Assembly (NCBI RefSeq): GCF_024298765.1
Contig: NZ_CP101210.1
DNA: 64,000 nucleotides
From: Escherichia coli
Lineage (GTDB): Bacteria > Pseudomonadota > Gammaproteobacteria > Enterobacterales > Enterobacteriaceae
Reading direction: 5' to 3' (one strand)
Shown: positions 7,590 through 8,420 of the stretch, piece after piece
Layout of the letters: every line of letters begins with the position of its first letter
Numbering within the stretch: position 1 is the stretch's first letter
The notes under the pieces: generated by a model
Seen by the model: only the letters and a program-made list of their open reading frames with translations
Told to the model about the DNA's origin: nothing
Database searches by the model: none
Program-made: the position numbers and the translations under genes

Positions 7590-8420
7590 CTACGCAGAGC
7601 GAGACGCTGTCGCCCCTGCACGTGGTGGCAGGGCAAATGCCACCAGCGCCGGGATGAGATAAATAAACCAGACGGCGACTTCGCTGACACTTGGCGCTTC
7701 CTGATAGCCAAAAATCCCTTCCATCAGCGTGCCAAACAGCGAGTGAGTTGACAGCACCGCGCTCATATCGAAGGCGATTTCCTGAAAGTGGTTCCACAAT
7801 CCGGCTTCATGAAATGCGCGAATGGCACCAGCTGCCAGCCCAGCGGCGACGAAGAGAATAAACAGACTGGTCCATTTAAAAAATGCACCAAGATTGAGGC
7901 GAATACCGCCCCAGTAGAGCAGGAAGCCGAGCACCACGGCTGTAGCAAGACCGAGCATTGCACCCAGCGGCGGCCAGATCCCGACATCTTGTTGAAATGC
8001 CGCCAGCAGGAAAAAGACCGACTCCAGCCCTTCCCTTGCAACGGCAAAAAAGACCATCATCACCAGCGCCCAGCCATGATGATTTCCACGCTGCAATGCG
8101 CTATCGACTGCCTGTTCCAGTTGCACTTTGACGTTGCGCGACACTTTACGCATCCAGAAAACCATCCAGGTAAGGATCACCACGGCGATCACCGCCACGA
8201 TACCTTCAAACAGTTCCTGTTCTTTTTGCGGGAATTCGCCGGTGGTTTCGTTAATGAAGATACCCAAGCCCAGGCACAACGCAGCGGCAAGCAACACGCC
8301 AATCCACATCACACTAATCCATCGGCCTCGCTGGGTACGCTTAAGATAGCTGGCAATCAAACTGACAATCAGCGCGGCTTCAAGTCCTTCGCGCAACATA
8401 ATGAGAAACGGAACAAACAT
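7590..8420 (-). CDS. efeU: EfeU, ferrous iron permease (FTR1/OFeT family); intact reading frame
   Basis: Continuous 276-aa ORF from MFVPFLIMLREGLEAALIVSL... containing the two REGLE motifs; ORF track extends 3 codons upstream to 8429. Confidence 0.88.
   Translation of the reverse strand: MFVPFLIMLREGLEAALIVSLIASYLKRTQRGRWISVMWIGVLLAAALCLGLGIFINETTGEFPQKEQELFEGIVAVIAVVILTWMVFWMRKVSRNVKVQLEQAVDSALQRGNHHGWALVMMVFFAVAREGLESVFFLLAAFQQDVGIWPPLGAMLGLATAVVLGFLLYWGGIRLNLGAFFKWTSLFILFVAAGLAAGAIRAFHEAGLWNHFQEIAFDMSAVLSTHSLFGTLMEGIFGYQEAPSVSEVAVWFIYLIPALVAFALPPRAGATASRSA

What the first reader, a model, noticed from the sequence alone, without database searches (positions are those of the whole stretch)
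7590..8420. efeU is an intact 276-aa reading frame
In K-12 efeU (ycdN) is a known frameshifted pseudogene, which leaves the EfeUOB ferrous iron transporter non-functional. Here the permease frame is continuous and carries both REGLE motifs, next to intact efeO and efeB, so this strain probably has a working low-pH ferrous iron uptake system.
Basis: established knowledge. Interest (0 to 1): 0.3.

Follow-up and report, generated by a model that had tools for sequence, protein, structure and literature searches.

The report
Intact efeU iron permease gene
This E. coli strain has an unbroken efeU iron-permease gene next to intact efeO and efeB, which is the normal state for the species (lab strain K-12 is the exception), so the finding is correct but ordinary.

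Summary
Window 7590-8420 (minus strand) is an 831-nt, 276-codon frame with no internal stop. It has REGLE motifs at residues 10-14 and 129-133. It matches Pfam FTR1 and the NCBIfam EfeU equivalog over their full length. Full-length efeO (6405-7532) and efeB (5128-6399) follow on the same strand.

The K-12 lesion is a 1-base deletion at gene position 106 (codon 36). The window has a base there, so the frame stays open.

The interpretation, a probably working EfeUOB low-pH Fe2+ uptake system, is supported by homology but not tested here.

Intact efeU is the rule in E. coli. Of about 5,400 complete genomes, only about 367 (7%) carry the K-12 deletion.

One small twist: the window has A rather than G at position 106. 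This gives Ser36 where the experimentally functional O157 and Nissle proteins have Gly36. It is the only amino-acid difference from O157 EfeU (19 of 20 nucleotide differences are synonymous). Seventy genomes share it, many from poultry, including named APEC strains. Gly dominates this column in relatives (107/120), but Pro, Ala, Asn and Ser also occur.

Verdict: already known, low interest.

The parts
7590..8420 (-). efeU coding sequence, 276 codons plus a TAG stop; inner-membrane iron permease of the Ftr1/OFeT family
   Evidence: ORF. Translation without internal stop. Pfam FTR1 E = 1.2e-89. NCBIfam EfeU equivalog 332 bits against cut-off 255. Annotated as efeU in the matching genome.
8379..8393 (-). 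First REGLE (RExxE) motif, residues 10-14, in the first hydrophobic segment
   Evidence: Motif position. Hydropathy segment 1-24. Residues R10, E11, G12, L13 and E14 are invariant in 48 relatives.
8022..8036 (-). Second REGLE (RExxE) motif, residues 129-133, in the fourth hydrophobic segment
   Evidence: Motif position. Hydropathy segment 118-141. R129-E133 are invariant in 48 relatives.
8313..8315 (-). Codon 36, AGT (Ser). Its first base (gene position 106, window 8315) is the base deleted in K-12 and is G (Gly36) in O157 and Nissle
   Evidence: Alignments. Amino-acid comparison. Allele counts.
8299..8321 (-). Short direct repeat TGGATT(A/G)G (gene positions 100-107), a 7-nt spacer, then TGGATTGG (gene positions 115-122). 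The K-12 -1 deletion, the window's G>A change and a 15-nt in-frame deletion in strain F2_81 all fall here
   Evidence: Sequence. Four-way alignment.
8429..8433 (-). Shine-Dalgarno-like AAGGG, 8 nt upstream of the ATG
   Evidence: Read directly from the sequence. Identical in K-12 and O157.
8480..8498 (-). Fur-box-like sequence CGTAATGATAATCGCTATC, 15 of 19 matches to the consensus, 59 nt upstream of the ATG
   Evidence: Best match computed. The stricter scan allowing up to 3 mismatches found nothing. The region is identical in the window, K-12 and O157. A regulatory role is inferred from published Fe regulation of efeUOB and was not tested.
8458..8472 (+). CpxR-box-like GCAAAGAAAAGTAAA, one mismatch to GTAAA-N5-GTAAA, in the efeU leader/promoter region
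   Evidence: This is weak evidence: 63 matches in the window at up to 2 mismatches against 46.5 expected by chance. It is only consistent with the published CpxAR control named in the title of Cao 2007.
6405..7532 (-). efeO, 375 aa, periplasmic cupredoxin plus M75/imelysin protein
   Evidence: Pfam Cupredoxin_1 and Peptidase_M75. NCBIfam PRK10378 matched over 1-375 of 375 at 772 bits. Three amino-acid differences from O157 EfeO.
5128..6399 (-). efeB, 423 aa, Tat-exported DyP-type haem peroxidase/deferrochelatase
   Evidence: Pfam Dyp_perox_N and Dyp_perox_C. TIGR01412 at 617 bits against cut-off 428. Twin-arginine motif SRRRLLKG at the N-terminus, and D235, H329 and R347 present.

Best explanation
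This is the ordinary, intact efeUOB operon of a wild E. coli strain.

**Components.** efeU encodes a seven-helix inner-membrane permease of the Ftr1/OFeT family, with an RExxE iron-binding motif in helix 1 and another in helix 4. efeO encodes a periplasmic cupredoxin-M75 protein. efeB encodes a Tat-exported DyP haem peroxidase.

**Published model (not tested here).** Periplasmic Fe2+ is bound and oxidised by EfeO and/or EfeB and passed as Fe3+ through EfeU. Expression is switched on by low iron (Fur) and low pH (relief of CpxAR repression).

**What is shown here.** The reading frames are intact. The proteins belong to these families. The motifs and export signals are present. The promoter-proximal DNA is conserved. 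K-12 differs by a 1-base deletion at gene position 106.

**What is inferred.** The proteins are made and transport iron in this strain, and Ser36 (Gly in the tested alleles) does not impair the permease.
For: - The frame is intact with both REGLE motifs.
- efeU, efeO and efeB each give full-length matches above curated cut-offs.
- The K-12 lesion is located at position 106 and is absent here.
- The EfeU protein differs from that of O157:H7 only at residue 36. The title of Cao 2007 names the O157:H7 system as functional. pN/pS is about 0.02.
- Seven hydrophobic segments are present, and the helix pattern of the predicted structure agrees with them.
- EfeB has a twin-arginine signal and retains D235, H329 and R347.
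- The 150 nt upstream of efeU, including the Fur-like box, are nearly identical in the window, K-12 and O157.
- The same 4.1-kb operon sequence is 100% identical in at least 50 independent complete genomes, so the open frame is not a sequencing slip.
- Literature on function and on the K-12 defect: PMC2808357 and PMC9174327.
Against: - No expression or transport data exist for this allele.
- Residue 36 is Gly in 107 of 120 relatives and in both experimentally tested E. coli alleles. Ser occurs in only one other cluster.
- The simple sigma-70 scan found no promoter in 4900-9100.
- The Fur-like box reaches only 15 of 19 matches.
- Tat, Sec and haem supply lie outside the window and were not examined.
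Confidence: 0.85

Rival explanations
1. The frame is open, but the lineage-specific Gly36Ser change at the cytoplasmic start of transmembrane helix 2 weakens or abolishes permease function, so the system is intact on paper only.
For: Gly36 is nearly invariant: 107 of 120 relatives and at least 90% in the 48-sequence alignment. Both experimentally tested alleles have Gly. The substitution is the only amino-acid difference from O157 EfeU.
Against: Pro, Ala, Asn and Ser all occur at this column in otherwise full-length relatives. The residue lies outside both RExxE motifs. The allele is kept unchanged in 70 complete genomes, many from poultry, with efeO and efeB also intact. No decay such as a stop or indel has followed the change.
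Confidence: 0.1
2. The A at position 106 is a secondary +1 insertion that repaired a K-12-like frameshift, so the allele is a revertant of a pseudogene.
For: The changed base sits exactly where K-12 lacks a base.
Against: Apart from that site, the window allele differs from the K-12 allele at 14 other nucleotides (15 differences in total from the repaired K-12 sequence), whereas K-12 and O157 differ at 5. It is therefore not derived from the K-12 haplotype. Nearly all differences are synonymous, with no sign of a period of relaxed selection. A simple G>A transition explains it.
Confidence: 0.03
3. The open frame is an assembly or base-calling artefact at a short G run, and the real gene is frameshifted as in K-12.
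For: None beyond the general fact that indels near short homopolymers are common sequencing errors.
Against: The base is an A substitution, not an extra G. The identical 61-mer occurs in 70 complete genomes from many laboratories. The whole 4.1-kb region is 100% identical in at least 50 of them.
Confidence: 0.01

Closest known systems
EfeU of E. coli O157:H7 (EfeUOB, reported functional by Cao et al. 2007)
   Same: Same length (276 aa), same operon order efeU-efeO-efeB, same REGLE motifs and the same promoter-proximal 150 nt. The protein is identical at 275 of 276 residues.
   Different: Ser36 instead of Gly36. There are 20 nucleotide differences, 19 of them silent (18 synonymous plus TAG for TAA at the stop). 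O157 carries an extra 1.3-kb hypothetical gene between putP and efeU, which the window lacks.
efeU (ycdN) pseudogene of E. coli K-12
   Same: Same locus between putP and efeO. There are 15 nucleotide differences once the missing base is restored, and the restored protein differs only at residue 36.
   Different: K-12 lacks one base at gene position 106. Its frame then reads ...RWIV and stops, and RefSeq flags it as frameshifted. The window has A at that position and reads through.
EfeU of E. coli Nissle 1917 (shown to be an iron permease by Grosse et al. 2006)
   Same: 276 aa, intact, same operon position.
   Different: Four amino-acid differences (M8I, S36G, A263V, A276M) and 27 nucleotide differences.
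Yeast Ftr1p (with the Fet3p ferroxidase), founding member of the oxidase-dependent iron transporter (OFeT) family
   Same: Same Pfam family FTR1, a seven-helix layout and two RExxE motifs (family description in PMC9174327).
   Different: The partners differ. The bacterial system uses periplasmic EfeO (cupredoxin-M75) and EfeB (DyP peroxidase) rather than a multicopper oxidase (PMC9174327).

Membership tests
EfeU / Ftr1 (OFeT) iron permease | Full-length match to the family profiles above curated cut-offs | tested here: met
   Pfam PF03239 FTR1 at 300.9 bits (cut-off 25.3), covering 1-275 of 276 residues. TIGR00145 at 351 bits (cut-off 303.8). NF041756 EfeU equivalog at 332 bits (cut-off 255).
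EfeU / Ftr1 (OFeT) iron permease | Two RExxE motifs inside transmembrane helices | tested here: met
   REGLE at aa 10-14 and 129-133. Both lie inside hydrophobic segments 1-24 and 118-141 and are invariant in 48 relatives.
EfeU / Ftr1 (OFeT) iron permease | Seven transmembrane helices | tested here: met
   Hydropathy analysis gives seven hydrophobic segments. The predicted structure has long helices at 2-28, 33-60, 65-93, 116-141, 149-171, 177-205 and 245-263. That model is low confidence (pLDDT 60.7) and was used for secondary structure only.
EfeU / Ftr1 (OFeT) iron permease | Uninterrupted reading frame, unlike the K-12 pseudogene | tested here: met
   831 nt with a single terminal stop. The K-12 deletion site (position 106) is occupied by A.
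EfeU / Ftr1 (OFeT) iron permease | Iron transport activity | not testable with these tools
   This needs 55Fe uptake or growth complementation at low pH. Only homology to the tested O157 and Nissle proteins is available.
EfeUOB tripartite system | efeU followed by efeO (cupredoxin plus M75) and efeB (DyP peroxidase) in one operon | tested here: met
   The three genes are consecutive on the minus strand with gaps of 57 nt and 5 nt. Domain content is and NCBIfam equivalogs.
EfeUOB tripartite system | EfeB has a twin-arginine (Tat) signal and haem-pocket residues | tested here: met
   The N-terminus carries SRRRLLKG, and D235, H329 and R347 are present. The identity of these three as haem-pocket residues comes from my own knowledge of the EfeB/YcdB structure and was not checked in a paper here.
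EfeUOB tripartite system | Iron (Fur) and acid (CpxAR) regulated promoter | tested here: inconclusive
   A 15 of 19 Fur-box match lies 59 nt upstream, but there was no match at up to 3 mismatches. A one-mismatch CpxR-like box is present, but that pattern is barely above chance. No sigma-70 consensus hit was found. The region is nearly identical to K-12 and O157, whose promoters were studied by Cao 2007, a paper I could not read here.

The most novel reading that the evidence does not exclude
The 23-nt stretch at gene positions 100-122 (TGGATTGG, 7 nt, TGGATTGG) may be a small mutational hot spot that repeatedly produces efeU variants in E. coli. Three changes fall there: the K-12 -1 frameshift, a 15-nt in-frame repeat-mediated deletion in pig strain F2_81, and the G>A (Gly36Ser) change fixed in a 70-genome lineage rich in poultry isolates. 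If so, the Ser36 allele might tune or reduce EfeU activity in that lineage.
Probability: 0.12. Interest if true: 0.2.

Novelty: already known. Interest (0 to 1): 0.08.

Why it matters
It matters little. An intact efeUOB means the strain probably has one more route for ferrous iron uptake under acidic, iron-poor conditions, as most wild E. coli do. This is useful for annotation and as a reminder that K-12 is the atypical case. The only untested detail is the lineage-specific Gly36Ser change.

Tried and rejected
- **Solved structures.** A sequence search of the PDB with EfeU found no relative at E <= 0.01.
- **Structure prediction.** AlphaFold2 with a 48-sequence alignment gave a low-confidence model (pLDDT 60.7, pTM 0.47). 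I used only its helix pattern and ran no fold search, because matches to such a model would be meaningless.
- **Fur consensus scan.** Allowing up to 3 mismatches gave no hit in the window. The best site has 4 mismatches.
- **Sigma-70 promoter scan.** No hits in 4900-9100.
- **CpxR-box pattern.** Barely enriched over chance, so it is reported only as consistent with the literature.
- **Revertant idea.** I considered that A106 repaired a K-12-like frameshift. I rejected it because the allele is not of the K-12 haplotype.
- **Sequencing-error idea.** Rejected because 70 genomes share the base.
- **Primary papers.** I did not attempt to fetch Cao 2007 or Grosse 2006. Their claims are cited through their titles and through PMC2808357, PMC4746246 and PMC9174327.

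Full report
**Observation.** The ORF list shows a minus-strand frame at 7590..8429 that starts with GTG. The ATG three codons in gives 7590..8420, which is 831 nt: 276 codons plus a TAG stop. Translation has no internal stop. REGLE occurs at residues 10-14 (window 8379-8393) and 129-133 (window 8022-8036). An AAGGG Shine-Dalgarno-like element lies 8 nt before the ATG. The gene is on the minus strand.

**Identity of the genes.**

| Gene | Window (minus strand) | Key matches |
|---|---|---|
| efeU | 7590-8420 | Pfam FTR1 over 1-275 of 276 residues, E = 1.2e-89; NCBIfam EfeU equivalog NF041756, 332 bits vs cut-off 255 |
| efeO | 6405-7532 | 375 aa; Cupredoxin_1 + Peptidase_M75; PRK10378 over 1-375 of 375 |
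| efeB | 5128-6399 | 423 aa; DyP N and C domains; TIGR01412, 617 bits vs cut-off 428 |

- EfeB has a twin-arginine signal (SRRRLLKG) and retains D235, H329 and R347. That these three are haem-pocket residues comes from my own knowledge.
- Hydropathy gives seven hydrophobic segments in EfeU, with the two REGLE motifs in the first and fourth.
- A low-confidence AlphaFold model (pLDDT 60.7) shows the same helix pattern.
- No solved structure of a sequence relative exists in the PDB copy.

**Comparison with K-12, O157 and Nissle.**
- In the K-12 derivative NEB5-alpha, RefSeq annotates efeU as a frameshifted pseudogene.
- The DNA alignment places the lesion as a single-base deletion at gene position 106. 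O157 reads ATT GGT GTG and K-12 reads ATT G-T GTG. The K-12 frame then stops two codons later.
- O157:H7 and Nissle 1917 are both 831 nt and intact.
- The window is also intact, but it has A at position 106 (window coordinate 8315), so codon 36 is AGT (Ser) rather than GGT (Gly).
- This is the only amino-acid difference from O157 EfeU and from the repaired K-12 sequence. Against O157 there are 20 nucleotide differences. Eighteen are synonymous, one is the G36S change and one is in the stop codon. pN/pS is about 0.02.
- Nissle differs from the window at four residues.

**How unusual is an intact efeU?** It is not unusual. efeU is found in 5,417 of 5,426 complete E. coli genomes. I probed those genomes with 60- and 61-mers centred on position 106:

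| Probe | Exact matches |
|---|---|
| K-12 deletion | 368 records (one, F2_81, is a partial match, so about 367) |
| Gly36, G at 106 | 3,638 |
| Window allele, A at 106 | 70 |

- The remaining roughly 1,300 genomes differ by some other base in the probe. Nissle, for example, has a silent G>A at position 111. I did not check each of these for intactness.
- The K-12 deletion is therefore present in about 7% of complete genomes, and the sampled examples are laboratory K-12 derivatives.

**The lineage.**
- The 4.1-kb putP-efeUOB stretch is 100% identical in at least 50 complete genomes and at least 99% identical in 70.
- Many of these come from chickens, turkeys or other birds, including APEC O78:H4 and APEC O2-211. 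Others are from human, dog, pig or water sources.
- The window is 99.99% identical to E. coli strain 104 (chicken, China) from position 1048 to 64000. It differs near the start.
- The open frame is therefore a stable lineage allele and not a sequencing slip.

**Is Ser36 tolerable?**
- In 120 relatives of at least 80% identity, the column is Gly in 107, Pro in 5, Ala in 3, Asn in 1 and Ser in 1. Two further Asp entries come from K-12-type truncated ORFs aligned there.
- Residue 36 follows the basic loop KRTQRGRW, at the beginning of the second hydrophobic helix, and lies outside both RExxE motifs.
- A small polar residue there is plausibly tolerated, but this was not tested. Both experimentally studied E. 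coli alleles have Gly.

**Regulatory region.**
- The 150 nt upstream of efeU are almost identical in the window, K-12 and O157.
- This region contains CGTAATGATAATCGCTATC, a 15 of 19 match to the Fur-box consensus, 59 nt before the ATG. A stricter scan allowing up to 3 mismatches found nothing.
- A one-mismatch match to the CpxR pattern lies at 8458-8472, but that pattern is barely above chance across the window.
- The simple sigma-70 scan found no promoter.
- These features are consistent with the published Fur and CpxAR control, but they do not prove it.

**Mechanism.** According to PMC9174327, which summarises Cao 2007, Grosse 2006 and others:
- EfeU is a 276-residue, seven-helix permease of the oxidase-dependent iron transporter family and is homologous to yeast Ftr1p.
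- EfeO is a Sec-exported cupredoxin-M75 protein.
- EfeB is a Tat-exported haem DyP peroxidase.
- The system takes up ferrous iron and is stimulated by low pH.

PMC2808357 states that the MG1655 transporter is non-functional because of the efeU frameshift. All sequence-level requirements for this system are met in the window. Activity in this strain is inferred.

**Side observation on the lesion site.**
- The site lies in a short direct repeat, TGGATTGG, 7 nt, TGGATTGG, at gene positions 100-122.
- Pig strain F2_81 has lost exactly one repeat plus the spacer. This is a 15-nt in-frame deletion, and RefSeq still annotates the gene as efeU.
- K-12 lost one G of the first repeat, and the window lineage has G>A in the same repeat. 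That makes three independent changes within 15 nt, which hints at a small hot spot.
- With 20 differences spread over 831 nt, one of them falling on the K-12 site has roughly a 2-5% chance of happening by coincidence. I treat this as a curiosity.

**Verdict.** The feature is already known and is the common state in E. coli, so interest is low.

Noticed in passing
window 8299-8321 (efeU gene positions 100-122); L007:3426-3560: The K-12 -1 deletion, the window's G>A (Gly36Ser) change and a 15-nt in-frame deletion in pig strain F2_81 all fall inside one short direct repeat (TGGATTGG, 7 nt, TGGATTGG). The F2_81 deletion removes exactly one repeat plus the spacer, as expected from replication slippage.
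   Followed up: partly
window 614-2458: A 181-nt unit that begins inside the 3' end of tRNA-Ser(GGA) (614-701) is tandemly repeated at 683-863 and 864-1044. A third copy starts at 1048 and is interrupted by an IS3-family element (about 1159-2414), with the unit resuming at 2418-2458. The otherwise 99.99% identical strain 104 has about 360 nt (two units) fewer here.
   Followed up: partly
window 25894-26237: A tandem array of a 101-nt unit, 3.4 copies at 95% matches, lies between cbpM and torD. The unit contains REP-like palindromes.
   Followed up: no
window about 8790-8915: An insertion of roughly 120 nt between putP and efeU relative to K-12, GC-rich and palindromic. The 4.1-kb query that includes it hit 8-11 places per genome, so part of it is a dispersed repeat. 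O157 and F2_81 instead carry a 1.3-kb hypothetical gene in this intergenic region.
   Followed up: no
protein P0047 (243 aa, 818 member sequences) and P0120: Public databases hold many copies of a 243-aa 'high-affinity Fe2+/Pb2+ permease'. This is the K-12 efeU remnant called from a start codon downstream of the frameshift, an annotation artefact of the pseudogene.
   Followed up: no
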